A stretch of 64,000 bases of DNA from NCBI GenBank assembly GCA_951406725.2, contig OX597817.1, positions 32,674,001 through 32,738,000 of the forward strand, in the 5' to 3' direction. Below are positions 5,050 through 61,669 of this stretch, piece by piece. This DNA is from Octopus vulgaris. Taxonomy: Eukaryota. The notes beneath the pieces are model-generated. The model had not been told where the DNA came from and ran no database searches. It saw nothing but the letters and a program-made list of their open reading frames with translations. Both the position numbers and the translations under genes were made by a program. Within the stretch, counting starts at the first letter, position 1, and each line of letters begins with the position of its first letter.

Positions 5050-5092
5050 GTCGGTGAAGAGGTCACAGATTGTATACCGAAAGAACTCTGAC
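5050..5092 (+). ncRNA. Minimal type I hammerhead ribozyme-like motif (variant core)
   Basis: GTCG-GTGAAGA-GGTcACAgatTGTatACC-GAAA-GAAC-TC-TGAC: stem I GTCG/TGAC, paired stem II, 1-bp stem III with a 4-nt loop; C3 is replaced by G. Confidence 0.55.
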
Positions 5093-5527
5093 AAATAAAC
5101 TAATAAAAATAATAAAGCTAAAGTGACGATCCCCAAATATAACAATATTTATACCAGTACATGATTTCAAATCAAGAATCTTGCAAACCAAATACATAAA
5201 CATAATCTATAAAACTGTGTGTGTACGTACGTGCGCACATGTCTGAATATTATATAATGTTTATAAATTTTCTTACCAATGCACAAATGTAAAGTGTTTT
5301 TTATGTATTTATTAAACTAGAAGCAACTGGTTTAACTTGCAAAATATTCCTCCAGTATTTAAATAACCTTGTTAGTTGAGGTGAGAAAACAAAATAGTTC
5401 TTTAGGCTAAAATGGTGTTTCTTTCCTATGCTAAACTAGAATTTAGAATATCATTTAGTCTCTAAGAAGGTTAGCGGTCAGTTTTCTATGTGCTACTTTC
5501 TTTATATTATATTATACTATGTTTATA

Positions 5528-5700
5528 AGGTGAGCTGACAGAATTGTTAGCATGCTTAGCAAAATGCTTAGCAGTATTTCATCCATCTTTATGTTCTCTG
5601 AATTCAAATTCCTCCAAAGTCTACTTTGCCTTTCATCTTTTTGGTGTCAATAAAATAAGCACCAGTTGAGCACTAGGGGTTGATGTAGTTGATTTAACTG
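5528..5700 (+). mobile_element. SINE family E (Meta-domain-like), older copy
   Basis: GGTGAGCTGACAGAA head and TTTGCCTTTCATC core shared with copies at 9714, 15782 and 44500. Confidence 0.8.
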
Positions 5701-5954
5701 TTCCTGAGTATGAATATAAAAACTACATCCTTCTACCAAGCCATGTCAAACCAGTGTGGCAGAGTAGGCTCATGAGACCAATATGATCTCAAGCCATTCT
5801 TTGGTTGAGAGAACATCCTAAGTCATTTGTTCTGCAGTGAACTGAACACAAGCAATCCAATCGAATATGTGTCCATTGAAGCAGTACCATAGCTAACGAG
5901 GTAGGTCTAAAGCACAGTTGATCCTATTTCAATACATGCACACTTACATATATA

Positions 5955-6162
5955 CAGGGTGTCCCAGAAGTCGTGCACCAACCTGGTTTTTTAAAAGAAT
6001 ACACCCTTACTGATTTCAAAAACATGTTATTGAAATTAATCATGACAAATGCTCAAATTGAGCACCCTCTACAATAAAACATGCCGAAAAATATAATAAA
6101 ATAAAATGCTTTAATTATTTTAAATGAAAACCAGAATGGTGCGCAACTTCTGGGACACCCTG
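5955..6162. mobile_element. Tc1/mariner-type MITE
   Basis: 26-bp TIRs CAGGGTGTCCCAGAAGTCGTGCACCA / TGGTGCGCAACTTCTGGGACACCCTG (2 mismatches) flanked by TA on both sides. Confidence 0.93.
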
Positions 6163-6380
6163 TAGTTATGTGTATATATGTTATGTTAACATATATATTC
6201 ACCAGTTTTGTTGACATTTGAGATGCTGAATGAAATATAGTATTTTTAAAATTTAGATATAGCCATCATACATTACAATCAATTCTACCATTAGAAATTA
6301 CATACATTGTTGATGATGATGAAGCCAGTGATGGAGCTTCTGTATAGTCATTCAACCTGCCTCAGAATAGCAGGCATGTT

Positions 6381-6764
6381 CATTATTTACATTATTTATA
6401 TTATTTACATTTGACTGATATTTGTCCTCGTCTTCTTTGTTGTTAACACAATGTTTCGGCTGATGTACCCTCCAGCCTTCTTCAGGTGTCTTGGGGAAAT
6501 TTCGAACCTGGGTTCACATTCATAAGGTATTCTTCGATGTTATTATTATTATTATTATTATTGTTATTATTCAGGTCACTGCTTGGAATCGAACTCGGAA
6601 TCTTTGGGTTAGTAGCCTGCACTCTTAACCACTACGCCTTATGCCCGTGGGCAATTACGGAAGGAAACGTTGTGTTAACAACAAACAAGATGAGGACAAA
6701 TATCTGTCGAATGTAAATAATGTAAATAATGTACATAATTTCTCATCTCTTAAATATAGGACTG
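6381..6764 (-). mobile_element. tRNA-headed, hammerhead-containing retroelement with an inverted partial copy (retrozyme- or Penelope-like)
   Basis: 13-bp TSD TAGCAGGCATGTT (6368-6380, 6765-6777); A box (6629-6639) and B box (6585-6596) on minus; hammerhead at 6445-6490; 6381-6457 is an inverted repeat of 6664-6739. Confidence 0.85.
6445..6490 (-). ncRNA. Minimal type I hammerhead ribozyme motif
   Basis: Minus strand GACAC-CTGAAGA-A-GGCTG(gagggtacat)CAGCC-GAAA-CA-TT-GTGTT: 5-bp stem II, stem I GACAC/GTGTT; the inverted copy at 6664 has the palindromic GAAACGTT version. Confidence 0.75.
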
Positions 6765-7650
6765 TAGCAGGCATGTTGCCCTAAAATCATACAATACTTT
6801 GTTAAAAATGTAGCGATGCACTGGAAAATGTAGTCCAAAATGAACAAAAATCAAGATGATCGTGACTTGAATATTTCTGATTGTAAGTTTTCTCAATCAG
6901 AGCTGTCTTGGGGCTAAACAACAACTACAAAAACAGAGATCGTAAGATTTGTCATGAACCGGTGGTTAAATTTTAATATTAAACTGTTGCAGCATGAAGC
7001 TAAAATTATTGAAGATTACAGCAGTTTTTAGTCTGTTGTGAATAACTTGGATTGACAGCTGTCTGGGTTTTGCTATCTTAAGCTAACAAGTATACTTTCT
7101 TGATCATCATTTATGAATCCTAAATGTTAACAGAAGTGTTGTTTGAAAGTAGCCTGGCATGTTTGACAAGCTGAAATCAGTTTTTGGTTGATAGAAATAA
7201 GTTTTTCTTTTAATTATTTATTTACTTTTTAATCCACCATGCCATGACTTAGCAGAGATAATTTTCTGATGAGTGATCTATGAGTAATAAGTAATTGCTT
7301 TAAAAGGTAAGAGAAAGAACGAAAGAGAGAGAGAGCAAGAGAGAGAGAGAGAAATTTTATAAATATTCACTGAGTAACTACTGATTTCTACTGACAGGAG
7401 GTGTAAAAGAAACTTAAGTTCTTTGGTCATCCCTGATTATTTCTTATAGGTTAGGTCTTTATGACTGGCAGGAGTAAATTTAATACTTAAAGATCCTGAG
7501 TCTATAAATTCAGATTGCCTGTCTGTTTTATTTTCGATTTAGATTTTTACTGGTTTCAAACATTGGACTGCAGCCATGCTAAGGCACGATCTTGAAAGGT
7601 TTAGTTCAGAGGATCTCAACCATCTTTTATCTATGGATCCCTTTGATTAC

Positions 7651-7870
7651 AGTTTTATTTCTTTATTGCCCACAAGAGGCTAAACATAGAGGGGACAAAC
7701 AAGGACAGACAAAGGGATTAAGTCGATTATATCGACTCCAGTGCATAACTGGTACTTAATTTATGAAAGGCAAAGTTGACCTTGGTGGAATTTGAACTCA
7801 GAATGTAAAGACAGATGACGTACCTCTAAGCATTTCGCCCGGCATGCTAACATTTCTGCCAGCTTGCCGC
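7651..7870 (-). mobile_element. SINE family E (internal deletion)
   Basis: Matches family E; TSD CTTTGATTAC at 7641-7650 and 7871-7880. Confidence 0.88.
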
Positions 7871-9049
7871 CTTTGATTACTGCTTTATGCTGGTAGACCA
7901 CCATAGACATTTGATGTTTAAAAAAAGTTTTATAGAAACTTCTTTCAAGATCCCTATTATGTTTTTCACACATTAACTTGTGTAGGTTGAACTATATAAA
8001 GCATTAGAGAAAGAAACCTGTTTCCTGTAATACATACCAATACACACATCTGAAGCAAAATTTTTTCAGGGGCCCTTAAAATACTATTGTGGATCTCCAA
8101 TTTGCTATTTTGTTGTGTGGACCCTCAGGTACTTATTCTGTTGGTCTCAGTTTCTCAAACACTGAGTAACTAAAAACGAAAGATCGCTTGATCATGGAAG
8201 GGACAGAGTTTATTACTACAGCATGCTACTATAAAAGAACAAAAAAAAACTTACTCCTAAATATCCAGATTTGGGATTGGTTTTCATTTAGTAGAAGACT
8301 TGTAGGGGTTTGAAGCATGCTGGAGCAACAACCTGTAACCCTTCCATGGCCAAGTTATCTTTCACTTTTAATATCTTGATTTCATTATGTCTGTTGGTGT
8401 GACCTGTGTGAAACCTGTTGGTGTACTGTGTTGCTTTGTTTGTTGTCCTTGTTAGTGGAGAGTTTGTGCAGTCAGGACAGGCATAGTCTGTGGGGATCTA
8501 GTATATTGTTCATACATCATTGTCATTTCTGTTACTCATCTGCAGTATATCTTATTTCTTTAAGTATGCTTTGTGCATTGTTTTGCTTTATTTACTGTTT
8601 TCTGTATGTTGTGGAGAAGTTGTATGTACCTCTTTGTATTTTTATCCTTTGTTGTGTATGTGTGTGTGTGATATATTGTGAAATGTATGAGTTGGTTGTA
8701 TTTGATGTTTTGCGGCCTGGCTGGTGAGAAAGGAGACTGGATTTGTTAGGTCCTACTTCAAAATCTATTGTAAAGTTGAATTTCTTGATGATTTATTTAG
8801 GGTTAGAGTAGTTGTGCAGCAGTGTCTGGAGAGGAAAAAAGTGTGTGATGTTGTCTGTATGTTTGGTAGAAATGTGGGGATAAGTCATGTCTGGATAAGT
8901 TGAAAAGTACGAGAAGAAAGGACTGATTTCTATGGTACTTCACTTAGGAAAATACATGTTTTGGAAGTGTTGTTTCTGTCCATTACATTGGCTTCATAGC
9001 CAAGTGGTAGTCTGCTAGCAAGTATTTTGTGTTGTTCCTTACGATTCAT

Positions 9050-9254: not shown

Positions 9255-9258
9255 TTAA

Positions 9259-9892: not shown

Positions 9893-9897
9893 TGATA

Positions 9898-9928
<31 letters not shown>

Positions 9929-10348
9929 GTGTTGTATTGCAGAATTTTTGTTTTGTTTTTCTTTCTGATCTATAGTCTTCAGTGTTAATTTAATACTGAA
10001 TATAATATGCATATTTAACTACTTTTGAATATGATAGGGAAGAAGATTTAGCTTCAATTTCTGTTATGTTGAGCTTCCTTGAATAACTTGTTAAGTTTTT
10101 TGACAGTGTTATTAGTGACAGAGAAAGAATTTCAGAATTTAGTTAGGTGGCTCAGCAATATGAAGTTCAATAATGTCTGAAATAACCTACAATAAAAGAT
10201 GCTTTTATCTATTTAGAAGTCTCTGGGTAATTACCTTTTAATTTACTGTATATGTCTTCTTTTCATTTTTATTTCTTTGTGTTCTTGTTTGCTGAAACTA
10301 TGAAGCAAAAATCCATCAGCTCTTGTCAAGATTCAAAAAGTCCAGATA

Positions 10349-10395
10349 CTTCTGGCTGATGAGCTACGACAGATTGAAACACCAGTGTTGTAGAA
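10349..10395 (+). ncRNA. Degenerate hammerhead-like motif
   Basis: TTCTGG-CTGATGA-(13 nt, weak stem II)-GAAAC-ACCAGT-GTT-GTAGAA; near-palindromic stem III, imperfect stem I. Confidence 0.4.
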
Positions 10396-10654
10396 TCCCT
10401 TGCACCAATTGCACAACTACGATTAATATATTTGCATTAAAATCTGCCAAAACATATTTAGAACAAACATGCAACTCATTGTTTCAGATCTCAATGTTAA
10501 CAGTACAAACAACTACTTAATGTTCTTAGATTTCTTTGTACAGTTTAAAATTATATTGATTAAGCAAATTATAAATATTTGTTAAATTTGATAAATCTGT
10601 ATATTGATATAATTTAAATATGTGATTTATGATTTCTAATTTTGAAGGCATACT

Positions 10655-14949: not shown

Positions 14950-15142
14950 GACAGGCTTCTTTCAGTTTTCCTCTATCAAATCCATTTACATGGATTTGCT
15001 TGGCCTGGAACTGTTGGAGAAGACAGATGCCCAAATTCCTGTGAATGACTGTGTCTTTTCATGTCTTGACATCACATACTAATTGTAAATAAATCTTTCA
15101 CCATCATACAAGCAATGCCATTCGTTTGCAGTTTTTCTCCAG

Positions 15143-15495
15143 AACATGATTCCGGGTTCAGTCCCACTGCATGGCACCTTGGACAAGTGTCTTCTACTAT
15201 AGCCTCGGGCCAACCAAAGCCTAGTGAGTGGATTTGGTAGATGGAAACTGAAAGAAGCCCGTCATATATATATATGTATGTTTGTGTGTCTGTGTTTGTC
15301 CCCCCCAGCATTGTTTGACAACTGATGCTGGTGTGTTTACATCTCCGTAACTTAGCGGTTTGGCAAAAGAGGCCGATAGAATAAATACTAGGCTTACAAA
15401 GAATAAAGCCTGGAGTCGATTTGCTCAACTAAAAGGCAGTGCTCCAGCATGGCCACAGTCAAGTGACTGAAACAAGTAAAAGAGTAAAAGAGAGT
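15143..15495 (+). mobile_element. SINE family A, 5'-truncated
   Basis: B box through the GAGTAAAA tail match family A. Confidence 0.9.
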
Positions 15496-15781
15496 AACCT
15501 GTCAGGGGATTCTGTTGTTTATGTTCAAAGAGTTAGGAGAAATATTACCTTGTTTGGAAACCAGTGAGGATTACTGACAGGGAGAGCATCTAGTTGTAGA
15601 AAAATTGCCTCCTTCAAGTTTGTTTGAATCATGCAAATATAGAGAAGTGGATGCCAAAACGATGATCAGCCATAGCTAGATGCAATGATGTATATTTTGA
15701 GGATTATATTTTAAAAAATAAGTTTTTGTTTAACTCCTGATCAACCCTGATGAAGTAGACCTATGATAAATGGCATTCTTA

Positions 15782-16000
15782 TTTCTTTACTGCACACAAG
15801 GGGACAAACAAGGACAGACAAATGGATTAAGTCGATTATGTCGACCCCAGTGCGTAACTGGTACTTATTTAATCGATCCCGAAAGGATGAAAGGCAAAGT
15901 CGACCTTGGCGGAATTTGAACTCAGAACGTAGCGGCAGATGAAATACCGCTAAGCATTTTGCCTGGCATGCTAATGATTCTGTCATCTCGCTGCCTTTTA
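15782..16000 (-). mobile_element. SINE family E
   Basis: Family E reverse complement; flanking direct repeat TATGATAAATGG(C/T)ATTCT near 15762 and 16003. Confidence 0.9.
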
Positions 16001-16851
16001 TATATGATAAATGGTATTCTATCCATGTCCATCACTTCTTATTTTCAGACATAGCATGCTTAAGATTCCAACATGGCCTTCCTTCTTTAAGGCAGACAGT
16101 AAGGTGGGATTTGAGGGTGATTTGGCTGCTATTTCTTGCAGGTTGAGCAATCCTGTGGATGCTTCACTCGTTAGCTCATTAAGAAAAAAAATTGTTTTCA
16201 TATATGGTTGTACATTCTAACAGCTTGACTCATGGCTATACATATGTTTTGTTGTTTGAACAAACAAATATTTGTTTACATTCTCTCTAACATTCTATAT
16301 CTTCCATATATATTCCGGTGGCGCATGGTAAATGTTGTCACAAGGTGTGCTACCATGCTGAATCTATGGTTCTGTTATAAAGTATTATACAAAAATAAAC
16401 AAATTTAAGGCCCTTTCTATACATAATACAACTGACTTAAATCTCTGTGAATGTGTATTAGTAGATCTGAAAACAAATGATGACCAGATTATTATATCAT
16501 GATACTGTAAAAACAAAGTTATTTTAAAGAAATGTTACTATCTTTGCACACCCAGAATATATTTCCTGGGAAACCTTACTTTTATAGATTTATTTTGTTA
16601 TAACCTGTTTCTTTATCATTGTCTTATTTTACTGTTAATGAGTAGTTCTTCCTTGCTATCATCTTCCTTCCTATTGTATACTTACTTAATCAAGCAACTT
16701 TAACCTAGTTTCTCTGTATTCTCTATTCATGAGTTTTGTGTCATAGTTTGCTTTTGGTAAATACTTAGAATTTAGGGTATGGAGATGACTGGTCTAGCCA
16801 TAGACATGTTAAAGATTTCTGTCACTGATTAACTATAATAAACATTGAAGA

Positions 16852-17180
16852 GTGGAGGCGCAATGGCCCAGTGGTTAGGGCAATGGACTCGTGGTCGGAG
16901 GATCGCGGTTTCGATTCTCAGACCGGGCGTTGTGTGTGTTTATTGAGCAAAAACACCTAAAAGCTCCACAAGGCTCTATCAGGGGGTGGTGGCGACCCCT
17001 GTTGTACTCTTTCGCCACAAGTTCCTCTCATTCTCTCTTCCTGATTATTGAGTAACGCTGCGATGCACTGGCGTCCCGTCCAGCCGGAGGGAACATATAC
17101 ACCACAGAAACCAGCAAACCAGGCCCATGAGCCTGGTTAGGCTTGAAAAGGGCAAAAAAAAAAAACAAAAAAACGAAAAC
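16852..17180 (+). mobile_element. tRNA-derived SINE family C with V-like domain and A-rich tail
   Basis: Head GGAGGCGCAATGGCCCAGTGG...GGTTTCGATTC; CTGCGATGCACTGGCGTCCCGTCCAG; TSD ACATTGAAGA at 16842-16851 and 17181-17190. Confidence 0.9.
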
Positions 17181-17711
17181 ACATTGAAGAATCAAGTCAA
17201 CTACATGCAAACCAAATTTACCTTTCATTCATCATTACTAGGCTGGAGTGTTCTCTGCATGACAAAATGTTGTGACATCATCTCAGATAAGACTAAGTAT
17301 GGTATATGCTTTGTGTGTTTGTTTGAGCAGGACTAGGTTATTTTAAGATTTTGCCTACCATGGCAGTCATTGGTGACTCCCTATAATATATTCTTAATAT
17401 ATCAAACGAAGGTGTTTTTTTTTTTTATGGATCCTCACATTACTGTAGTTCAAAATACATTACTAAAATTTTAGGAAATGTACAGAACATATTTCTTTGT
17501 CTTTCCGAGATGATTATAAAATTGAATCGATAATTGTGGAGACATGGAATTCTTCAGAAGATGAGGGACCAGGTTCAGTGTCAGAAAGGTACAAGTTGCT
17601 GTCATCTCCATCATTGCAGAACTGCCCTCCATAAAATAATCTTTGTGAAAAAGAAGTCATTTAGGCTTATAATATAACCTGAAATATAATCTGTTGAGAC
17701 AAATCATGAAT

Positions 17712-18128
17712 ATCATCATCATCATCATCATCATCATCATCGTTTAACGTCCACTTTCCATGGGTTGGACGATTTGACTGAGGTCTGGCGAACCAGATGG
17801 CTGCACCAGACTCCAATCTAATCTGGCAGAGTTTCTACAGCTGGATGCCCTTCCTAACGCCAACCACTCCAAGAGTGTAGTGGGTGCTTTTATGTGCCAC
17901 TGGCACGAGGGCCAGTTAGGTGGTACTGGCAATGGCCACGCTGAAATGGTGCTTTTTATGTGCCACCTGCACAGGAGCCAGTCCAGCGGCACTGGCAACG
18001 ACCTCGCTCGAATATTTTTTCGCGTGCCACCAGCACAAGTGTCAGTAAGGTGATGTAGGTAATGATCACACTCGAATGGTGCTTTTAACGTGCCATCGGC
18101 TTGGAGGCCAGCTTGTTGGTCTGGCAAT
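17712..18128 (-). mobile_element. Family D (RTE LINE 3' UTR fragment) with (GAT)n tail
   Basis: (CAT)n-CGTTTAACGTCC end plus internal repeated GGTGCTTTT...GTGCCAC modules. Confidence 0.88.
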
Positions 18129-18244
18129 GAAAAATTCATAAACGGAGGTATAATGACCATTTTAACCCTTTTTAACATGTACCACTGGCCACTCCTGCAG
18201 TACAGAAAGAATATTATATTCATTCTGATTTGTAGAAGTCACCA

Positions 18245-18955
18245 GTGTTACTCATGTTTATAAATCAATGTGGCAATTTATATAGTGAACTAGAGAGTAC
18301 ACAAGGAAAGTTGACAATAGATTGGCCAAAGCAAACATTGCATTTGATAGACTGTACATCTGAAGAAAGGGATCAAGCTCAGTGTATACAGAGTTTTTAT
18401 TCTGATCATCCTCTTGTATGGTTCAGACTTGTGGGTCATCTATCAATACCACCTACAACTCCTTGGGTAATTCCATCAATGCTGCCTATGTATCATCCCC
18501 AGTATCCACTGGAGTGACTTTGTCACCAATATCGAGGTCCAAGTACAAGCAGAGGTCATCAGCATTGAAGCAACTCTGCTTAAGCCATAAATATACTGAG
18601 CAGAACATGTCACCAGGAAGGAGAATCATCAAGTTCTCAAGATCATGTTGTGTGGTGAGCTCTCCTCTGGTCACTATTAGAGAAGAGCACCAAAGAAGGG
18701 GTATAAGGATTCTGTAAAGAAATCTCCTGGCACCTGCCTCATTAATCACCACCGGTGATCTGTTCTTGCTACTGAAGCCTGGCATCTTACAGTCCACCAA
18801 GCAACAGCCTCCTTTGAAGACATCTGCAGGACCATCTTTACTGAAGAGAAAAAGGATGAAAAACAAAGACATTACAACCAGTACCAATTAGCCTACCTTC
18901 TCATGCAGCTTCTGCGGTACTGCCTGTTTATCCCAAATCAAACTCCTTGGGCATC
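18245..18955 (+). mobile_element. Old RTE/BovB-clade (AviRTE-like) LINE ORF fragment, pseudogenised
   Basis: Plus-strand pieces translate to KVDNRLAKANIAFDRL, KLSVYRVFILIILLYGSDLW, IHWSDFVTNIEV, KIMLCGELSSGH, YKDSVKKS and a terminal TFSCSFCGTACLS zinc-finger-like motif, with stops and frameshifts. Confidence 0.85.
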
Positions 18956-20984
18956 TAATAATGTTTGTCTTTTGATGTTGCTACTGTTGACAGCATCTCT
19001 ACCTTATTTCTAATATCATTTACATCAATTCCCTTTTTCAATTAATTACATTACTTTTGAGCATTAACTGAGTGTTATCACCTGTTTTAAAAAATTTTTC
19101 TTTTACTCAACACTTATGATAGGATTCAACTAAAACCCTTAATAACACTTCAAGTCATTTTTAAATTAATGATTAAATATATATGCAATTACTAGTTTGC
19201 ATTGATTATCTTTGTTACTATAAAAGAAATCTTTTTGGTGACAGAAAACTGATATTGTGAAAAGCATCAGTTACATATGAAGTGGCTTTTTGATTCCTTG
19301 ATCTAATTTCAGTCCTTAGTCTCAACATTTCTGTATTATATTGGTGAATGCATGTCGAATATGAAATTTTACTCCTCTCCACTTACAAGGGTTTGGTCAG
19401 CACAGAGCTATAGAAGACACTTACTTTATGGCATCTTGCACAAGTGTCTTCTACAATAGCCACAAGCCACCCTAAGCCTTGTGAGTGGATTCGATAGATG
19501 GAAACTGGAAGAAGCCTGTTGTATGTATATGTGTGATTGTGAGTGTGTGTGTGTATATCATCATCATCATTTAATGTCTGTTTTCCATGCTGGTATGGGC
19601 TGGACATGTGTGTGTGTATGTGCATCTTTATTTTGACATTACATGATGGTTGTTAAATGAGCTTCACCATCATACAAGTGATGTGTTTTTCTTTTCAGTC
19701 TTCTGTACAAAGCATGTTTAGCCAAGGGGAAATATTTCCATGCTTGGAAATAGGTGCAGGTTGGCAACAGGAAGAGCAACCAACTGTAGAAAATTTGTCT
19801 CAATAAAAATTCCATTTGTGCCATGCAAGCATGGAAAAGTGAACATTAGACAATAACAATAAGTGTTCTTACTATATCTCATCTTCATTGTGAATATATC
19901 CTCCTAAAATTTAAAACATATCATGAAGTCCCATTTTAAAGATATTATGGAGTTTGTTAAAGAAAACTTAGTTCCTATTTTGAGTAGATCAAGTGACTAA
20001 ATAACTCTTTTACTAGCCCTAATAAAACACTTAGCTACTCTCCTTATGTATTGCATAATGATTTGACTTCTTAAAACTCATGTACAATATAAATAGTTTG
20101 TTTACTGTGTGTTTAAAATTCTTTATTTATGAATCCAAGTCAGCTTTGCATAAATGGCCAAAAGCTTTACAGCAGATTTTTTCTCTCTCTCTTGCTTTGC
20201 TTTCACTATCATAAAAGATAAGTTGAGTTTGTAGTTGTTGAGACCCAGAAAAAAAGAAGAGAAAAATTACAAGTCTGTTATTGATTTCCAAATTTCCAAA
20301 TACAATCTCATATGATTAAAGAAAAGGTATCAACAACATATCAGAAGTAATGATGGTGTTTATGTAAAAAGAAATGTTAGAATCTGGTTAATGTCTATGA
20401 CATAAGCATAATTATATATAATAAGTAGAAATTATAATGCAGGTAAAAAAGCCATATAATGGTTGAGTAGAGTACTGCTTAGTGGGCATGCTTAGAAATT
20501 ATTTTAATAGCGGATAAAGTCATACCATTTGCACATTACTTATCAGACATTTTATTTCTTGTAGATACTTTTTTTTCTAAATAAATATTTTCATTTTTTA
20601 TTGTTGTATTTTGGGACGGTCATTTTTTTGTTTTGTTTTTACCAAATAAACACACGCACTATATATTCATTCTTTCAATCCATTGTATTGTTATTCTCTA
20701 ACCCACTACCTGTTCCAGATCTTTTTCTGCTATAGGTAGAGATGGTATCACCCTATAGCCTGTAATACCATTCTGAAGAGGAACGGCTCTAATTAACAAG
20801 GATTAATTAATTTTGGGTTGCAAAAAAAAAAAAAAAAGGGTGTAGGTATTGCTGTATGGTTAAAAAGCTTGCTTCCCAACCATTTATTTTCAGGTTCAAT
20901 CCTATTGCATGGCAACTTGGGCAAGTGTCCTACTATAGTTCTGGGTTTATTAATGCCTTATAAATGAATTTGATTGACAGAAAC

Positions 20985-21380
20985 TGTGGTTGGGCCTCAT
21001 GGGGGCAAAGTGGCTGAGTTCCTTTTGAGTGTTGGGCTTCTTGGAGGCAATGACCTAGACCATTGGCATTATGTCGTGCTTGAGAAGAAGACGCATCAAG
21101 CTGAGCAAAATTGCGGTCGTGGCAGATACTGGCGTCATGCAAGTTGGCACCTGTGCTGGTGGCACGTAAATGCACCCCAGTGTCAAGCAAATGACACCTG
21201 TACTGGTGGCATGTAAAGGCACCCATTACACTCTTGGAGTGGTTGGCATTAGGAAGGGCAGTCAGCTGTAGAAAACCATGCCAAATCAGACTGGAGTCTG
21301 GTGCAGCCTTCCAGTATGCCAGCCTGGTCAAACTGTCAAACCCATGCCAGCATGGACAATGGACATTGAATGATGATGAT
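20985..21380 (+). mobile_element. Family D RTE 3' end inserted in a family A SINE
   Basis: RTE-like coding end plus UTR and TGATGATGAT tail; family A head at about 20840-20985 and family A tail at about 21440-21615. Confidence 0.8.
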
Positions 21381-21382
21381 TT

Positions 21383-21417
<35 letters not shown>

Positions 21418-21797
21418 GGGGGGGGGGTGTCTTTCTCTCTCTCTCTTTCTGTCTTTGTTCCTCCCCACCTCTTTTACAACCAGTGTTGGTTTGTTTACAT
21501 AACATACCAGGCATAAAAATAAGTAATGTCTGGTATGTTTGATTTGTTTGACTAAAATCCTTCAAGGTGGTGCTCCAGCATGGCTGCAGTCTAATGGCTG
21601 AAACAAATAAAAGATAAGCATTAATAATTGAGAAAAATAAGTGGAAATGTTATGAGTTGGAAGTTAATATTCTGAAGCAGAAAATATCTTGCATACTGAT
21701 TGCTGTGGGATTCAGAGATGTAGACAAAACTCATTTACATTACCGGAGAAAATACTGGATTCGTTAATGGTTATGTGATCATATGATTGACCAGACT

Positions 21798-22147
21798 TAG
21801 CTTATGATGAGGAGACCCACTTCGGCCATGAATGACCATGGGATTGCACCTAGAAAGTTACCCTCCGAGGCACAAGTCAGGGCAAGATTATTTGTGGAAG
21901 GCTAGCAGTCGCCCATGCATACCAATCTCCCCTCTCCAAGCCACTGATGTTATCCAAGAGAAAGGCAGAGGCCGACACAGCTTGGCACCAGTGATGTTGC
22001 AACTCATTTCTACAGCTGAGTTAACTGGAGCAATGTGAAATAAAGTGTCTTGCTCAAGAACACAACACACAGTCCGGCCCGGGAATCGAACTCACAACCT
22101 CACAATCGTAAGCTCTACACTCTAACCACTGAGCTATGCGCCTTCAC
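21798..22147 (-). mobile_element. tRNA-derived SINE family F nested in an older SINE (family G, about 21778-22434)
   Basis: 12-bp TSD ATTGACCAGACT (21786-21797, 22148-22159); the host SINE is flanked by AAT(G/A)GTTATGT. Confidence 0.88.
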
Positions 22148-22973
22148 ATTGACCAGACTATTAGATGCTATTATATATTGGTAGTTACAATACACTCTTG
22201 CATCATATTTAGCTTTTGGCTGATGCCATCCTGCTGGCTAAGCAAGCAGGCCAACATTCACCCTGATTGGAAGGTCAGTCTGTTGCAGGATTATCCATTT
22301 ACAGCTGAGAGGACTGGAGCAATGTGAAATGAAGTGTTTTGCTCAAAAATACAACACACCACTCAGCCTGGAAATTGAACTCACAATCGCTAGATTGTAA
22401 GTGTAACACTAACCACTGGGCTATGTGCCTTCACAATAGTTATGTAACCAACTAAATTTCCAATATACTAAATCGAAACATGATAAAGATTTTTTTTCTT
22501 CATAAATCATTATAGAAGAAAATATGCTTAGATGAACAGTCTTTGAAATAAAGTTAAATTATTGTCTCATTTTACCTATTTGCAAATGTTCTCTCCTTAA
22601 TCTAATTACTTTGTTGCTAAGATACTTTAATTAGCTGTCATTACAAAATCTGCTGCATTTTATGAGAGAGACAGAATTTTCAACTATGTTTATATAACTT
22701 ATTCTGATCTCAGAAACTGAATTATTGGTGGAATCTTTAATATTTTACTTGTTTCAGTCATTGGACTGTGACCATGTTAGGGGTTTAGTTGAATAAATCA
22801 ACCCCAGTACTTATTTTTTCTGAAGTTTGGTACTTATTTAACATCAGTTGCTTTTGCCAAACTGCTAAGTTTGCTTTCCAACCACCTGCTTCAGTCCCAC
22901 TGTATGGCACCATGGGCAAGTGTCATCTACTATAACTCCAGGCTGACCAAAGTCTTATGAGTGGATTTGTTAA

Positions 22974-23419
22974 CCCTTTCATTACTGTATTTATTTTGAG
23001 ATGCTCTGTGTTTCTTTCAATTACTTTAACCCTTTAGCATTTAAACCGGCCACATCCGGTCAAAAGTATTCTGCCTGTTCTATGTTCAAACTGGCCAGAT
23101 CTGGTCTCTCACACCAACCCTACAATATCGTTTTAAAAATTAACAGCTACCTCATCAAAATCTCATAGCTACAAGATAATGTATGATTAGTTCAAAACAA
23201 TGTGGATAAGAAAAGTATTAATTTTGGCAAAATAATGCGAACACTAAAGGCTTAAATATAACAAAGAATTTAGTAAAATAATTTAGTTATCATTCTGCTA
23301 GTGTTAGGAACATAAATTGTGACTAAGGTTTGGTGGAAGATTTTAATTCAAAACTTGTGAAAACAAAACATTTGTACTCAGAGCCAAAGTTGGTTTCAGC
23401 CGGGTTGGTAACGAAAGGG
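22974..23419. mobile_element. piggyBac-type MITE P1 carrying a nested MITE P2
   Basis: TTAA-CCCTTTC...GAAAGGG-TTAA, splitting a family A SINE at GGATTTG|TTAA|ACGGAAAC. Confidence 0.92.
23030..23251. mobile_element. piggyBac-type MITE P2
   Basis: TTAA-CCCTTTAG...CTAAAGGC-TTAA inserted at an internal TTAA of P1. Confidence 0.92.
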
Positions 23420-24770
23420 TTAAACGGAAACTGAAAGAAGCTTGTCGTGTACGTATAAAGTATGTGTGTGTGTGACTGGAGTCTAGTGACTGAAAGAAGT
23501 AAAACATAAAAGAAATATAGATACTCAATGGGCTTCTTTCAGTTTCCATCTTCCAAGTCCAGTCACAAGGTGCCACACAGAGGAACTGAACTTGGAACCA
23601 TATGGTTGAGAAGCAAACTTCTTACTACACAGCCATACCTGCATAACTTTAAAATGTGTCTCAGTAAATCTTTCCTATTCAGACATGAGAAAACATAGTT
23701 GTGGACAATGTTATATTGAAATCATAATTTTTTTTTTGGTGTTTTTACATAAAATGGTGACTGCAAGTCTTACAGGTTCTGGATTATCTCAGTTGTGTAT
23801 TGTGATTGGACAAGAGCATAACCTATTTTATTAGGCACCAAGATTACTTACTTCCTGATTGGGAAGACAGATTCACTTTATATAAGCATGCACAAACATA
23901 ATTTCAAGTGTTATACACAAAACTTGAAGTTTTTAAGTGTTTTCAGCTCCTCTCTTTCTCTCTCTCTCTCATTCACTCTCCCCCCTCTCTCTCTCTTGGA
24001 GTTGAAGCGTCAAGCAATAAATTGAGAGAAACTTCTACCTTGAGAAATGGAAAAAAACATTACTATAAGTAATGAGTAGTTTTCGTTTCTCATTTCAAGC
24101 CTAAATGCACACACATTCACATACTATCGTCGTCATCATCATCTTTATTTTATGTCTACTTTGTATTGGCTGGATGGGTTGTCAAAGTCCAAATTAGTTC
24201 TTATTTTGAGTTATTGCCTCATCCCAGATTGAGCAGACTTATGGCCATAAGTATTCCAGCTGTAATCATTCCATCTTCATTTGGAGCTATTATAGGATAC
24301 GTTATCTACTGCGTTCTTTGCTTGTTTAAGATGGTAGGATATGACACGAGGAAGACTTGGCTGCTATTTCTAGCAAGTTGAGTGACCACGTAGAAGCCCT
24401 GTCATTTCATCTTTGCACATCTTCTGCTGGTGGTTTCAATGGTTTCTGCTGAGAGTGGCTTGGTTGGATCACAACTGTTGCTGTTCACAGTTGTTGCTCT
24501 TCTCTCTACTTATATACATCATAGCCTAGTGTTTATGGATATTACTGTGCTGTAACAGCTATTTTTGTGTCAGAAGTACTTTTTTTTGTGTTTGTTTAGA
24601 CTGACTGTGAAGATAGTGTTCTTAAGATGGTATTTTGATACTTTCTAGGAGTGTTGTTAATGTGTCTGGGTATTTGAGAATTTGGTGGGGATTGTGTTAG
24701 TTGCAGAAACAAACTGTTCATAATGCATGATTAAATGATGTTTTGTTTTTAAGTACTTTTAGTAGTTTAA

Positions 24771-24990
24771 CCCTTTAGTATCTAAACAGGCCATATCCAG
24801 CCCAAATATGCTTCCTGCTTTATGCTCTAACTAGTCAGATCCAACCTATCACACCTACCCTTCAATGCCATTCTAGAAATATACAATCTCATCATGAAAA
24901 CTTTAAAGCTAAAAAATAAAGCTTGATTAATTATAAACAATGTCAATGAAAAAACATAACATTTGACAAAATAATCTGAATATGAAAGGA
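24771..24990. mobile_element. piggyBac-type MITE P2, diverged
   Basis: TTAA flanks, CCCTTT/AAAGGA ends, same length as and similar to 23030-23251. Confidence 0.85.
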
Positions 24991-25426
24991 TTAAGACTGA
25001 GTGTGTTGTGAGAAGGTCTGTACGTATGGCTTGTGAGGATGCAAAGTGCACTATATGGTGCTCTTTATGTAGTCTGTGTAGTTAAAAAGCTTGCTTTGCA
25101 ACCCTGTGGGTTTTGAGTTCAGTCTCACTGCATGGCATCTTCGGCAAGTGTCTTCTATTATAGCCTCGGACCGACCAATGCCATGTGAGTGAAATTGGTA
25201 GATGGAAACTGTGAGGAGAGCTGTTGTATGTGTGTGTGTGTGTGTGAGAGAGATATATATAATAGTAATAATAATAATGATAATAATAATAAGTACAACA
25301 CTAGTAGAACACTAAGTACAAAACCAAATATATGGCACCCATGAACTTCCAACTTGTTGTCTCTTGAGGTCTCTGGGTGGGACTTGGAGCCAGCTTGTGC
25401 AAATGTAAAGCAAAAGTCAAACATAG

Positions 25427-25624
25427 AATAATAATAATAACGAAATTATTGTATACACTGCTCCGGTGCACCACAACTTGTAAAAAGTGCATATAAAGCA
25501 TATGCAGTAATGTACAAATGTTTGGAAAGTGAACAGTGTATGAGTCAGATACATACTTGCGTGGGTATGGAGGGGAGAAAATCAGGTGTAGTGTTGGCGA
25601 ATCTCAGAAAGCATGTAAGTTTTG
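25427..25624 (-). mobile_element. CR1 LINE 3' end nested in a family A SINE (about 25070-25830)
   Basis: Reverse complement of 29448-29640 including the (TTA)n tail. Confidence 0.88.
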
Positions 25625-37843: not shown

Positions 37844-37879
<36 letters not shown>

Positions 37880-38675
37880 CCAACTGAGTAGAATATTCTT
37901 TGTTGAAGAAGTCTAATAAGAGTGAAGCATGTCTATTGCTTTCATGAGTTAATTTTAAAGAATGATCCATTCCATGGATCTGCTGTTTCTGATGAGATCA
38001 TGGCATGAAAAGCAAATGATTCTATTTCATATTTATTGATCTAGAAAAAGCAAGTAGAGTAATGTCTTTTCTCTATGATAATAGCAGTGTTTGAATTCAT
38101 TATTTTGCTCTCAATCAGATTCATGTTTGTATGTGCAAATATAAGCTGCAGTGGACTGAGCCAACTGAACGCCAGTTTTACTGGTCAAAGAGTTGGCAGA
38201 ACATACTGTGTATTTAGTATTTCTTTATATTTCTCACAAAAACACTGAACTCTTAGTTCTCCAGTAATTCCAGCTGTAAATATTTATTACAGTAGGCCTA
38301 GTTCACTCACAATTATGAGCAACAGGACGACAGCATAATTGATTAACAAATGTATTTTTAACTTGCTTACTGAGCTCCAAATCCTCTTGTGAGTTTGGAG
38401 AATGCAAGGGGGATTCCTTACAGTGTACTTTCAAAAAGGTTTTAGTGGGGCTTCAGAAATCAGTAAATTATGGGTTATTATACTATGTATAAATACATAT
38501 TTCTGGTATACATATCAGTATAAGCGATGCTTCTTCAATAGTGAATAAAATATTTGTGATAATTTAATTAAATAAACCATGCCAAAGCTTTAATAAATTT
38601 ATGACTTGGCTCTGTAGATTTAATTTAATGTGGCGAGTCATCATAGCATTGCATAAAATGGAATGCAATATTAAT

Positions 38676-40614: not shown

Positions 40615-41053
40615 GTACCAGTGGCACATAAAAGGCACCATTCGAGTGTGATCGTTTCCAGCGTTGCCTTACTGGCACTTGAGCCCCGTGCTAGTAGGGT
40701 GCTAAGAGCACCCTCCGAGCATGATCGTTGCCAGAGCAGCTAACTGGCTTCCATGCCGGTGGCATGCAAAAGGCACCATTCAAGCGTGATTGTTACCAGT
40801 GTCGCCTTACTGGCACCTGTGCCGGTGGCATGTGTAAAAAGATTTGAGTGAGGTCGCTACTAGTACCACCTGACTGGCCCCCGTGCCGGTGGCACGTAAA
40901 AGCACCCACTACACTCTCGGAGTGGTTGGTGTTAAGAAGGGCATCCAGTTGTAGAAAATCTGCCAGTTCAAGATTGGAGCCTGGTGCAGCCATCTGGTCA
41001 AATCGTCGAACCCATGCTAGCATGGAAAGCGGACGTTAAACGATGATGATGAT
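40615..41053 (+). mobile_element. Family D RTE 3' UTR fragment
   Basis: Repeated GGTGGCA...AAAAGGCACC modules ending GGACGTTAAACGATGATGATGAT. Confidence 0.9.
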
Positions 41054-41140
41054 ATATATATATTTAAGTAGGTGAATGAATTATCCTAGCATGGAAAATT
41101 CGTTTGACCGATACCTGGGTAGCAAATTCACGTCAGAAAA

Positions 41141-41184
41141 CATGGTTGAAGAGACCTGTCAAGGGTAGAAACTCCGGGTTCTTG
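41141..41184 (+). ncRNA. Degenerate hammerhead-like motif
   Basis: CATGG-TTGAAGA-GACC(tgtcaag)GGTA-GAAAC-TCCGG-GTT; substitutions in the core and stem II. Confidence 0.4.
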
Positions 41185-41205
41185 TGTGGAAATTTATGTG
41201 TTTTT

Positions 41206-41317
41206 TATATGAATAAATGAAAGAATGGAGTCGAACGAAGATTTTAACAAAATTCCTTTTGTGTTTTGTGTTTTGTTAAAATCTTCGTTCGACTCCATTC
41301 TTTCATTTATTCATATA
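41206..41317. repeat. Perfect 47-bp inverted repeat with an 18-bp spacer
   Basis: 41206-41252 is the exact reverse complement of 41271-41317. Confidence 0.95.
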
Positions 41318-41788
41318 TATATATAAAACCTAATTAGTTTTGACTGTGACTTTATTTTGCCTCGTGACTTATTCAGTAAATGTTGATGATCTTGTTCTTA
41401 AAATTTGTCTTCAAATAACCCCCAAATTAACATTTACACTGGTACAGTTCCACACCATTTTCATTGATATACATTCATTCATCAGTATTCTTACACATTC
41501 ATACATAAATAATAACTATCATTTCATAAATCATTTCATTCATTCATTCATTCATTCACTGGTGTACTTACACATATACGTACATAAATGTTTATATATA
41601 CATGTTAATAGTATTATGATCATAATTTCATGCTCTTTGAGAATGTATATCCTCATTGGATCACACCTTAATATGAATAAAAGCTGGTGTACATTCAACT
41701 AAACATGTACTATATATATATATCTTTCAAAATGTGACTTCGTGTGTACCGTTGGCAATTTTTTTCCCTCTGTCTTCCCTTCTCCTAT

Positions 41789-41823
41789 GTTTCCGACGAA
41801 GAGCTCCGCTCGAAATGTTAAAC
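41789..41823 (+). ncRNA. Hammerhead motif in family J repeat (about 41724-41903), mutated copy
   Basis: GTTT-CCGACGA-A-GAGC(tcc)GCTC-GAAA-TG-TT-AAAC; homologous to 61541-61575. Confidence 0.6.
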
Positions 41824-41903
41824 CCTCCTTCTTTCCTGAGCGTCCAATAATACTATATTTGTTCCATGTCCTCGCGTTGTGTTTTTTTTGTGCTTTCTTG
41901 TTT

Positions 41904-42282: not shown

Positions 42283-43495
42283 ATATATATATATATATAT
42301 ATTATTTTATATATATATTTGTCTACCCTTGCACTCAATGTCACATACAATTCAGGAGTGTTAAAGTTTAGATGATATGACCATAAGTAACAGTTCCTGT
42401 TCTCTTTGCTTCATTTTCTGTTTCTCTTTTGATTTAACTGTTGTTTCTACCCTGCCTCTTTTCGAGAGGATGCTGGCCAGGGTATTTTTCAGTTGTAATG
42501 GTTCTTTTGTCTTTTTTTCCTTTTTGGTTTTACTTGATTTCTAGTCCTCACTTCCTCTACCTTTTATCATTGACTTAATTTTGTTTGACTTTTAATGATT
42601 CAGAGGTCGGCACTTAATTTTTTTTCCTCTTTGTTTTTTCCTTTTTCTTTTTTTAAACCTTAGGATTTTTGTGTATGTTCTTTTGACATATATGTTCTGT
42701 ATCATTGCTATGCTTTCTACCATATACTTAACCTTATCTAATGTTCTACTGCCCTGATAGAGGTTACAGTTATATTTGTATAAATCAACCATTGTATAAT
42801 GCTTACATTTACTGCTAGGTGAGGGGTATTTCCTTTTTATGACACATTGTTTATTTTTATGCATGTCTGACCTTAGAAAATCCTGTCTTGTTAAATAATG
42901 TTTACGAAAGCAATGATATTGTACTAAATATGAGTAAGTTAAATCTCAAGTTCTCCATTCATTTCATAGGGAACTGAATTTAAAGTTTCTGTTTTAAATT
43001 TCCTGTTTTATTTATAGAGAACTGAATTTAAATTTTCTGTTTCCCTGTGCCATGTGAAAAGCACTGGTTCTGGGGCCACATTCAAAGCACTAGTGCCACG
43101 TAAGAAGCACCCAGTACACTCAGTAAAGTGGTTGGTATTAGGAAGGCATCCAGCTGTGGAAACCAAGCCAAAACAGGCAATGGAACCTAGCATGGGCCCT
43201 GGCCTTGTCAGTTCCTGTCAAGCCATTCAATCCATACCAGCATGGAAAACAGATGTTAAATGATGATGATGATGATGATGATGAATGATAGGATAACAAG
43301 AATTGATGGGGAAAATATGTTTACATTGGTGCAGACATGGCTGTGTAGTCAAGAAGTTAACTGCACAACCATGTAATTTCTGGTTTAGTCCTACTGCAGT
43401 CCGCTTTGGGCAAGAATCATTTACTATAGCTGCAGGCCAACAAATGCTTCATGAATAAATTTATGTGGATAGGAACTGTACAGAGCCTATTGTGT

Positions 43496-43910
43496 ACTTA
43501 CTTACTTGTACTTGTGACGGCGTTCACCCAGTGCGGGTTGAGCTGGCTTCTTCTTTGGTCCTAACAGCATCACGAACCATGGCAGCCCACGCTCGACAGT
43601 CCTGTGTGAGGTCACTGGAGATAGCGAGCCATTCGCGGTTCCATCTGCGCAGACTGATCACCTGCGGACCTGATAGTTCGGAGAAGTCCTCCTTTATCGT
43701 CGTTGCCCAGGTCTTCAGCTGTCTGCCCATGCATTTGCACCAGCGTGGGAAGTGGAGGTGGGAGGAGGACATCGCAAATCAGCTCACCCTCTGGACGCTG
43801 GGCCGCATGACCGAACCACCTTAAGCACCGTTGTAAAAGCATCAAAGGGAGGGGCTGGAGATTCAGGCGATGACAAAGACCGGCTGTAGGAACCCAATCA
43901 ATGTGTCAGG
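43496..43910 (-). mobile_element. RTE-clade LINE, 5'-truncated, related to 38676-39119, nested in an A-type SINE
   Basis: 13-bp TSD GAGCCTATTGTGT (43483-43495, 43911-43923); LRWFGHAAQR...KTWATTIKEDF...RRWNREWL; (AAGT)n tail. Confidence 0.93.
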
Positions 43911-49408: not shown

Positions 49409-49545
49409 AATAGTGTAATAAATAAAATATATGCATACATACAAACATATATGTACGTACCTACATCTACATGTATATATACATGTAGATGTAGGTACGT
49501 ACATATATGTTTGTATGTATGCATATATTTTATTTATTACACTAT

Positions 49546-55762: not shown

Positions 55763-55786
55763 TTAAGTTAGTAGGGATAACAGATG

Positions 55787-59297: not shown

Positions 59298-60419
59298 TAT
59301 TATTATACAACGCTGAAGACCATTAATGAATAAACATAATTTGAAGCTGGTTGAAACTACTAAAAGAATAAATTGCTATATAATAATAATATTGATAACA
59401 TCTAAATGAGGATGCTTCTTTTTTCACCTTTGATGAATGTAGCTTTGACCAGGAGGAAATGATGTTATCAAATGTGACTCTGGACTGGAATATCCTCCTA
59501 TCAGTTGGTTAGTAGAGGTAGCTAAATCACTGATCATCATTGCCTTCTCATTCCCAGTTCAACTTCCCTCACTTGCTCCATAATGAGCAAGTGGCACTTT
59601 CTGCTGCCTCTCCGATCCTGCACATATCTTTCATCCACTCTTATTGAATCTAAAGCAAATTTTGTCAATGGAATTGGCACAAACAGTAGGGAGTCACAGT
59701 ATTTGTTGAGTAGTATCATATTTGGTGTCTTATGTTTGTGAGATTCCTCTGTCAAATCAATAAAATAGCAGTATATTGGAGTCAGGTCAATTGCTTCATT
59801 TCTGGAAAATAAGGAAAAGGAAAAGTAAAAAAAAAACAAACAAAAAAACCTAATTTTAAAACTTCTTCTTTATGCATCATTTCTCTCTTCCTTTTTATGT
59901 GTGTGTGTGTTTTCTTTCTCCGTAGTAATAACAGAAAACCTTAGTACTGAACATCATTATTCATACCTTAACACTTTTAGCTGTGCATATTAACGTCTGA
60001 GCAAGTTACTCAGGCTGCAAAACATCATGAAAAATTTAATATTTCACAATTGAATTTTTCAACTTTCGGAAAATAGTACAGCAATCAAAATTGCTTATTG
60101 ATAACTTTCCATCACTAGGCATATTTTCAATAAATCTTGTACTTAAAGGGGTTTATACTTATTGATCCAGAGAATGAATTTTTAATATTTTTACATTTAA
60201 TTTGGTGTTTTAATATAGAAATAGAAAAGTATTCTAGTATTGTCTCCTATAAGTAGGACAGGAATTAGAAACTGGTGGTTTTGCTTATCAGCATCCTTGC
60301 TCTTAATATATTTATATCATTGATTCAGTATCAGGTAGAATGGGAGCATGTACTAAACAAATTCAGCGCAGTCATTAAATTCACATATTCTAGTTACCTA
60401 TTCTTAGTAACTGAAACAC

Positions 60420-60601
60420 TATATATTTTGTATGTGTGTGTGTGTGTGTGTATGTATACATGTATATATATTCCTATATATATGAGTAAATAAATAAAAT
60501 ATATATTTTGTATGTGTGTGTATATATGTATATAAATATATATATGTATATATATATATAAATATATATATGTATCTATCTATCTATCTATCTATCTACC
60601 T

Positions 60602-60686
<85 letters not shown>

Positions 60687-60810
60687 CCTATATATATATT
60701 CTTATATATATATATATGACTAAATAAATAAAATATGTGAATTAGTGACTACACTGTATTTGTTCTCTCTCTCTTTCTCTCTCTCCCTCTCACATACACA
60801 CACACACAGG
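60420..60810. repeat. Compound microsatellite (TG/TA/TATC/TC/CA)
   Basis: Directly visible. Confidence 0.95.
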
Positions 60811-61150
60811 TGTATACGTATGTATAATACAGAGCTAAAGATAAATGTTTTTAAAATACAAAAGCAATGAACATTGAATGAATAAAGGACTTAACGCATG
60901 TATGAGATTGGATTGGGTTGCCCATGTTTAGTCCACTGCAGGATGAGGGCATCAGCATGTTCGCTTCACCAGAGAATGGCTTGAGATCATATTGGTTCGA
61001 TGAGCTTACTCTCCCACACTGGCTCAACATGGCTTGGCAGAGGGGTGCAGTTTTCATACCCATACTGACCCCAAATGGGTGAAGGGCAAAGTCGATCTTG
61101 GCAGAATTTGTACTAGCTAACTAGCTCATCACATTACGTAGTGAAGCATG

Positions 61151-61194
<44 letters not shown>

Positions 61195-61195
<1 letters not shown>

Positions 61196-61669
61196 GATGA
61201 AACAGGGACAATTGAAGATGGGGAATATTCCTTGTGTTGTATGTCTTGTACTCTGTTTTTTCGTTGTTTGAAAAAAAAAGTTCATTTCTATGTTTTGTTT
61301 TTATGCTTTCATTTCTCATTGTGTTCAACGTTTTTTTGGTGTCCTGTACCCATATATGCATGTATATATACATATAGATGTAGGTATGTACATATATGTA
61401 TGTATATATGCATATATTTATGTATTATTTATGTTATACACACATACACACACACCCACATCCACATTATGTGACCGCTTGTGTATCGTTGGCGATTTTC
61501 TTTCTCTGTCTTCCCTTTCTTGGACCTTTCCTTTTTCTCTGTTTCTGAAGAAGAGCTCTGCTCGAAACGTTAAATCCTCCATCTTTCTTTCCTTTCCTGA
61601 GCATCCAATAACACTATACTTGTTCCACGTCCTCATGTTGTTGTGTTTTCTCTTTGTTCATGTTTGGAG

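What the first reader, a model, noticed from the sequence alone, without database searches (positions are those of the whole stretch)
5050..61575. Several different hammerhead-bearing repeat families within one 64-kb window
Seen: motifs with hammerhead architecture at 5050 (+), 6445 (-), 10349 (+), 41141 (+), 41789 (+) and 61541 (+), plus weaker ones near 20773 and 37900. Flanks and stems differ between loci except 41789/61541, while the NTGANGA...GAAA spacing and a short, near-palindromic stem III (ACGT, AGAACT, ACACCAGTGT, ACTCCGGGT) recur. I see no Penelope RT or GIY-YIG ORF here. Inference: a genome-wide radiation of non-autonomous ribozyme retroelements that repeat annotation may leave unclassified. 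If this is an intron, still-active sense copies could cut pre-mRNA.
Basis: partly seen in the sequence, partly recalled or inferred. Interest (0 to 1): 0.75.

Follow-up and report, generated by a model that had tools for sequence, protein, structure and literature searches.

The report
Penelope retroelement ends with hammerhead ribozymes
Most of these self-cutting-RNA motifs are real but ordinary: worn leftover ends of several Penelope-type jumping genes, plus one likely retrozyme, of which this animal genome carries an estimated hundred thousand; only one copy in the window still has every part in place, and cutting is untested.

Summary
Mostly confirmed, and a known kind. Six of the eight named sites (5050, 6445, 10349, 37900, 41789, 61541) are copies of dispersed repeat families whose majority sequence is a type I hammerhead. 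41141 is a look-alike: the family majority has C at core position 9, and its real hammerhead is on the other strand, cut off in this copy. 20773 is single-copy and unresolved. 10349 looks like an old ~330-bp non-LTR retrozyme; 37900 has no parent found. A 600-kb genome sample gave 23 descriptor hits against 0.8 in shuffles, about 10^5 genome-wide. Only 61541 passes the descriptor in the window. One side result: about half of the largest family spread with a U4C core change. No host gene was identified, so the intron idea is untested. The scan already reported this on other DNA of this genome (e1-8669779, e1-8663237).

The parts
4984..5131 (+). Family E remnant: 3' end of an old Penelope-like element; decayed hammerhead at about 5050-5095 (G at position 3)
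   Evidence: 382 candidates; majority is a U3 hammerhead; decayed GIY-YIG end upstream in sense in L206 and L207; extent
6382..6666 (-). Family B remnant: 3' UTR and pLTR of a Penelope/Poseidon-like element; minimal hammerhead at 6445-6490 with broken stem III palindrome
   Evidence: 3515 candidates; B in sense downstream of RT in 20 of 29 RT loci; extent
6671..6749 (+). Inverted partial copy of the family B end, abutting the truncated 5' end (Penelope-type insertion mark)
   Evidence: 13 of 29 other B loci have one
10287..10519 (+). Family C: single decayed monomer of a likely non-LTR retrozyme (about 330 bp, about 60 bp deleted here); canonical type I hammerhead at about 10350-10398
   Evidence: 30 candidates; majority has 6-bp stem I, 4-bp stem II, GUC site; tandem second copy in 4 of 29 loci
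20711..20784 (+). Unresolved single-copy CUGAAGA with two interleaved 7-8 bp stems upstream and no GAAA; not a type I hammerhead
   Evidence: abuts the reversed 3' end of an E-related family at 20642-20695
37869..37944 (+). Family F remnant: old decayed hammerhead-bearing repeat, no coding parent found
   Evidence: 35 candidates; alignment of 20 copies; extent
41052..41259 (-).
   Evidence: 2156 candidates; ORF, hammerhead and inverted pLTR in L201-L204
41271..41321 (+). Inverted partial copy of the family D end
   Evidence: 16 of 29 other D loci have one
41723..41903 (+). Family A, C4 subfamily: pLTR of a Neptune-like element; hammerhead 41789-41823 with U4C and broken palindrome
   Evidence: 5169 candidates; parent ORF
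61465..61677 (+). Family A, U4 subfamily: pLTR remnant with an intact minimal hammerhead at 61541-61575, followed by (TA)n
   Evidence: 3485 candidates

Best explanation
Four of the six repeat families here (A, B, D, E) are 5'-truncated 3' ends of protein-coding Penelope-like retroelements with a type I hammerhead fold in the terminal repeat, family C is likely an old non-LTR retrozyme, and the window's copies are likely inert relics. Shown: family structure, hammerhead fold of the majorities, RT/GIY-YIG upstream in sense in longer copies, inverted partial ends, decay of most window copies. Inferred from the literature: in a tandem master element two hammerheads pair through the palindromic stem III and cut the transcript; the element's RT and GIY-YIG endonuclease then copy it from the 3' end, often into (TA)n, and stop early, so most insertions keep only the last 150-300 bases, which include the ribozyme. 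Selection keeps the core in the master lineages; inserted copies then decay.
For: A: 5 of 5 fetched loci with the family's GIY-YIG end have RT/EN upstream and A in sense 1.4-1.9 kb downstream. B: in sense downstream of RT in 20 of 29 loci, inverted at the truncated 5' end in 12 of 29. D: RT-GIY-YIG frames of 318-674 aa upstream of the D end in 4 of 4 long copies, with the hammerhead in sense or in the inverted pLTR in 3 of them. E: decayed GIY-YIG end upstream in 2 loci. Inverted second copies in 13, 16 and 11 of 29 loci for B, D, E. Genome sample 23 hits against 0.83. Core less changed than flanks in A, C, D, E. The genome holds an intact 781-aa RT-GIY-YIG family with 99-100% identical terminal repeats.
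Against: No cleavage or RNA data. The 5 A parents were found with a query from one C4-type copy, so the U4 subfamily (61541) has no ORF-linked copy of its own; most A copies start at one preferred 5' point and show almost no inverted partners (0 and 2 of 29), which would also fit a short self-copying derivative. E rests on 2 loci; F has no parent. Core and flank change equally in B (5.5% against 5.8%, p 0.81) and not clearly differently in F (p 0.22). Clade names rest on motifs, not on a tree.
Confidence: 0.88

Rival explanations
1. The short copies are independent non-autonomous elements (SINE-like or retrozyme-like) that are copied as short RNAs by Penelope enzymes in trans.
For: True in all likelihood for C (tandem ~330-bp units, canonical hammerhead, no ORF). 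A has a sharp preferred 5' end in 29 of 29 top hits and few inverted partners. F has no parent.
Against: A, B, D and E all extend 5' into RT or GIY-YIG coding sequence in longer copies; D copies have one fixed end and one ragged end. The sharp A start follows a long (CA)n-rich UTR and the top hits were selected for matching the whole query.
Confidence: 0.15
2. Some intact copies act on host transcripts: a sense copy in an intron cuts pre-mRNA, alone or by pairing with another copy.
For: About one descriptor-passing hammerhead per 26 kb; retrozymes are reported as under-represented in introns in Xenopus (bioRxiv 10.64898/2026.07.22.740005, passage seen).
Against: In the window 1 copy is intact; its stem III duplex is only -1.7 kcal/mol and the nearest A copy, 19.7 kb away, has a broken palindrome (+2.6). 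Single minimal hammerheads gave no cleavage in vitro (PMC4209133). No host gene was identified.
Confidence: 0.07
3. The motifs are chance matches in AT-rich, repeat-rich DNA.
For: Holds for the motif at 41141, perhaps for 20773; the window alone is not significant under the strict descriptor.
Against: Genome sample 15 against 0.17 and 23 against 0.83, decoy cores 0; family majorities are better hammerheads than the window copies.
Confidence: 0.02

Closest known systems
Minimal type I hammerheads in the pLTRs of metazoan Penelope-like elements (Cervera and de la Pena 2014, PMC4209133; parts 1-2 of 4 read, supplements not seen)
   Same: Short stem I, extra base between A9 and 10.1, G10.1-C11.1, palindromic stem III, many families per genome, mostly single truncated copies, pairs on opposite strands 100-700 bp apart, U3-A8 variant (seen in other families here).
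   Different: Estimated count about 10^5 against 2,000-9,000 for the genomes quoted in the parts read (different descriptors, so only roughly comparable); a high-copy U4C subfamily; D has a 12-bp stem II with a 30-nt loop.
EN+ Penelope-like elements: Neptune, Penelope/Poseidon, Hydra (Craig et al. 2021, PMC8557442; passages and section 11 read)
   Same: RT followed by GIY-YIG, 5' truncation, inverted upstream partial copy, insertion into microsatellites, hammerhead in the pLTR; A has a CX4CxxC linker (Neptune-like), a D-like ORF has DKT (Hydra-like).
   Different: Clade placement not tested with a tree; the CxCX5C linker of Hydra was not recognised in the D ORF.
Metazoan non-LTR retrozymes (Cervera and de la Pena 2020, PMC7229834, passages; Li, Clavereau and Pollet 2026, bioRxiv 10.64898/2026.07.22.740005, part 1 of 5 and passages)
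   Same: Family C: canonical type I hammerhead, about 330-bp unit, tandem dimers or trimers, low GC, no ORF.
   Different: C is old (copies 72-87% identical to the window copy), mostly monomeric and decayed; no RNA circle shown.
Natural U4C hammerhead variant of a viroid (as cited in Perreault et al. 2011, PMC3088659; passages read)
   Same: Same core change; described as much slower in vitro yet sufficient in vivo.
   Different: Here it is fixed in a retroelement subfamily of an estimated tens of thousands of copies; activity unknown.

Membership tests
Type I hammerhead ribozyme | Core CUGANGA, GAAA and UH in type I order with stems I and II paired | tested here: met
   41141: C9 in the majority, GAAA absent in relative L200. 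20773: no GAAA, no family.
Type I hammerhead ribozyme | Site-specific self-cleavage | not testable with these tools
   Needs an in vitro assay.
Minimal PLE hammerhead (Cervera and de la Pena 2014) | Extra base after A9, G10.1-C11.1, stem I of 4-5 bp, palindromic stem III | tested here: met
   A and B (ACGU), E (extra G, AGAACU); D and F have the palindrome but no extra base.
Minimal PLE hammerhead (Cervera and de la Pena 2014) | Lies in the terminal repeat, in sense, downstream of an RT-GIY-YIG frame | tested here: met
   A 5 of 5, B 20 of 29, D in long copies L201-L204, E 2 loci.
Minimal PLE hammerhead (Cervera and de la Pena 2014) | Same test for families C and F | tested here: not met
   No PLE coding sequence next to the C or F unit in the loci examined; only 1.5 kb each side was seen for most, so F may still have a parent.
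EN+ Penelope-like element | RT with C-terminal GIY-YIG endonuclease | tested here: met
   A, B, D parents by tblastn and translation; Pfam GIY-YIG below cut-off for D (E 0.005); E only the endonuclease end.
EN+ Penelope-like element | 5' truncation with an inverted partial copy at the 5' end | tested here: met
   B 13, D 16, E 11 of 29 loci, and the window's B and D copies; rare in A (0 and 2 of 29).
PLE clades (Neptune for A, Penelope/Poseidon for B, Hydra for D) | Placement in an RT phylogeny | not tested
   Only motifs seen: CX4CxxC linker in A, none seen in B, DKT in a D-like ORF.
Non-LTR retrozyme (family C) | Canonical type I hammerhead in tandem units of about 200-400 bp without ORF | tested here: met
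   6-bp stem I, 4-bp stem II, units about 325-330 bp in L213 and L214; same-strand second copy in 4 of 29 loci.
Non-LTR retrozyme (family C) | Expressed as linear and circular monomer RNA | not testable with these tools
   No run on record as RNA was listed.

The most novel reading that the evidence does not exclude
A Penelope-like lineage has multiplied to tens of thousands of copies with a crippled (U4C) hammerhead core while its sister lineage kept U4, so either cutting is dispensable or tuned down for retrotransposition, or weak ribozymes are rescued by pairing in trans through a palindrome (ACGU) shared between families; with about 10^5 hammerheads the genome would also allow a direct test of whether intact sense copies are purged from introns.
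Probability: 0.2. Interest if true: 0.6.

Novelty: new member of a known kind. Interest (0 to 1): 0.3.

Why it matters
As it stands: it lets short 'SINE-like' or unknown repeats of this genome be filed as Penelope ends, and shows a very high hammerhead density. The role of the hammerhead in Penelope-like elements is still open (PMC8557442, passage seen); sister subfamilies with U4 and C4 cores, and tens of thousands of intact and dead copies, are ready material to test whether cleavage matters to the element or costs the host. The kind of system is known since 2014, and the scan has noted it before in this genome.

Tried and rejected
Rfam scan of the window at E up to 10: no hammerhead family among 86 matches, all below their gathering scores; Rfam models miss these minimal forms. 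Pfam on the 150 longest of 371 open frames of at least 50 codons in the window and on 133 unmasked frames in 180 kb of flanks: nothing over a cut-off, so no host gene and no strand for an intron test. Run search: no RNA holder listed. Contigs of 4 runs (RNA is a guess, one study) laid on 15000-27000 gave repeat pile-ups, low-depth unspliced pieces and no GT..AG joint among the 15 rows shown (386 not shown); no conclusion drawn. Two hammerheads of opposite polarity in D: rejected. 20773 as a rewired hammerhead: shape is rare (0 of 332 CTGANGA cores in the sample) but the test was built on this locus, GAAA is missing and no second copy exists; left open. A first rewired-hammerhead descriptor was too loose (197 hits) and was dropped for a tighter one. 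Cluster 11 maps to a common short repeat whose window copies lack the stems; dropped. The constrained fold of 10349 was one base out of register and is not used. Lunse et al. (dimer cleavage) is not held; seen only as a reference in a review.
Full report
Setting. The window is G000:C4:32674001-32738000 in a 2.8-Gb animal genome, rich in microsatellites and short repeats. It is probably an octopus: that rests on my recall of its repeats and on earlier scan notes, not on a test.

Observation. A type I hammerhead descriptor finds one site in the window, 61541; that alone is not beyond chance (1 to 14 of 40 shuffles reach it, by setting). Relaxing the core adds 5050 and 41789 and four microsatellite artefacts. 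Rfam finds none. The test that decides is the family. Each of 61541, 6445, 10349, 41141, 5050, 41789 and 37900 is a copy of a dispersed repeat (3485, 3515, 30, 2156, 382, 5169 and 35 first-look candidates). The majorities of 20-30 aligned copies repair the window's defects: A (41789/61541) and B (6445) are minimal type I hammerheads with an extra A after A9 and an ACGU palindrome; C (10349) is canonical, with 6-bp stem I and a GUC site; E (5050) is a U3 variant; F (37900) is an old, recognisable hammerhead. Two sites fail. At 41141 (family D) the majority has C at position 9, a 77%-identical relative lacks the GAAA, and the real hammerhead (12-bp stem II) lies on the other strand just beyond the point where the window copy breaks off. 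20773 has no GAAA and no second copy by DNA or pattern search.

Chance control. In 60 evenly spaced 10-kb stretches of contigs C1-C23 the descriptor gave 15 hits with a C3-G8 core (12 shuffles: mean 0.17) and 23 with U3 or A8 allowed (mean 0.83); five decoy cores gave 0 each. The 23 fall into 13 sequence clusters. Scaled up: about 107,000 descriptor-passing motifs (Poisson range 68,000-161,000, ignoring that inverted pairs cluster), and about 79,000 A, 42,000 B and 19,000 D copies, intact or not (17, 9 and 4 copies; a second collection gave 14 A copies). Non-CpG mismatch at core against flanking sites was 1.7 against 14.9% (A, U4 left out), 6.6 against 20.5% (C), 1.1 against 6.8% (D), 8.7 against 15.9% (E), but 5.5 against 5.8% (B) and 13.6 against 18.4% (F, p 0.22). 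Flank counts include gaps and subfamily differences, copies are related and BLAST-selected, so I read this as selection on master lineages, not on inserted copies; B, with one lineage, shows neutral decay.

What they are. The window holds no RT or GIY-YIG frame (the only tblastn hits were to translated 3' UTR of B). The genome does: 6136 GIY-YIG candidates, including an intact 781-aa RT-GIY-YIG family with near-identical terminal repeats and a U3-A8 hammerhead, which is not one of A-F. Following each family upstream gave its parent. B: an RT fragment beside one copy retrieved 29 further RT loci; B lies in sense about 1 kb downstream in 20 and inverted at the truncated 5' end in 12. D: four long copies carry RT-GIY-YIG frames of 318-674 aa, about 2.9 kb overall, some with an inverted pLTR. 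A: a few copies extend through a CA-rich UTR to an endonuclease end; 5 of 5 loci fetched, out of 40 scored, have RT/EN, then A in sense 1.4-1.9 kb on. E: two loci have a decayed GIY-YIG end upstream in sense. The window's B and D copies carry the inverted partial end typical of these elements (PMC8557442 passages). C instead forms 325-330 bp tandem units without ORF, as non-LTR retrozymes do (PMC7229834 passages). F has no parent in 20 loci.

How it likely works. Shown: anatomy and linkage above. From Cervera and de la Pena 2014 (parts 1-2 read) and a review (PMC6765202 passages): minimal hammerheads did not cleave as single motifs and cleaved weakly as dimers; the proposed role is to cut the element's RNA out of a longer transcript. 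Inferred: reverse transcription from the 3' end stops early, so the genome fills with the last few hundred bases, which hold the ribozyme. The window copies are likely inert: 61541 is intact but its stem III duplex is worth -1.7 kcal/mol, and the palindromes of 41789 and 6445 are broken (+2.6 and +3.4); 5050, 10349 and 37900 have broken cores or stems.

Side result. Family A splits into two subfamilies with 16 diagnostic columns; C at core position 4 goes with one set in 46 of 48 copies and U with the other in 36 of 42 (60 of the loci were fetched with the two window copies as queries). In the unbiased sample the split is 6 to 6, and the five ORF-linked copies are C4 type (found with a C4-type query). 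So U4C at 41789 is inherited, not decay. Perreault et al. 2011 (passages) cite a viroid U4C variant as slow in vitro but sufficient in vivo. I saw no report of it in a Penelope element, but ran only one search that included the term and could not see Lunse et al. or the supplements of the 2014 paper, which may list it.

Intron idea. No host gene was identified in the window or 180 kb of flanks, so orientation cannot be judged. All 5 descriptor hits in the 244-kb region are on the + strand, too few to weigh, and the window's B and D elements are on the minus strand.

Prior knowledge. The kind is published (PMC4209133; PMC8557442; PMC7229834). Searches for octopus or cephalopod with hammerhead gave no paper on these families; a 2026 octopus repeat annotation lists Penelope families and never uses the words ribozyme or hammerhead in its main text (PMC13282606, passages).

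Verdict. Real, well above chance, a new set of members of a known kind. Interest 0.3.

Noticed in passing
window 61195-61437 (+): 5'-truncated copy of a repeat family whose fuller copies (L324, L302, L276) carry hammerhead blocks in S-G-C order; only the last block and the tail remain here. Earlier scan notes describe this rewired form.
   Followed up: partly
L276:7733(-), L302:1026(+), L308:8088(+), L324, L335, L118, L370, L211: At least two families with S-G-C block order and paired stems I and III; 4 hits in the 600-kb sample against 0-1 in 10 shuffles.
   Followed up: partly
L181-L187 (e.g. L184:244-5460): Young intact Penelope-like family: upstream ORF plus 781-aa RT-GIY-YIG frame, terminal repeats 99-100% identical in L181, L183 and L184, U3-A8 hammerhead in many copies.
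   Followed up: partly
window 20642-20695 (-): Reversed 3' end shared by E and a related family (E2, intact hammerhead in L308 and L143), next to the unresolved 20773 motif.
   Followed up: partly
window 41066-41150 and L200:1695-1790: A stretch of about 50 bases near the 3' end of family D is nearly unchanged in a 77%-identical relative; possibly the signal read by the element's RT.
   Followed up: no
window 49431-49524: Perfect 94-bp palindrome of TA/CA-rich sequence; Rfam microRNA matches all below gathering score.
   Followed up: no
window 18089-19014: Single-copy, slightly GC-richer stretch with open frames of 84-133 codons and exact low-depth contigs in one run; no Pfam match; possible exon or UTR.
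   Followed up: partly
window 29181-29492 and 43459-43905: Fragments that read like the ends of CR1-type and RTE-type LINE proteins (recalled, no Pfam match).
   Followed up: no
L209:9015-9626: Immunoglobulin-domain exon about 2.4 kb from two same-strand A copies; a locus where an intron test could start.
   Followed up: no
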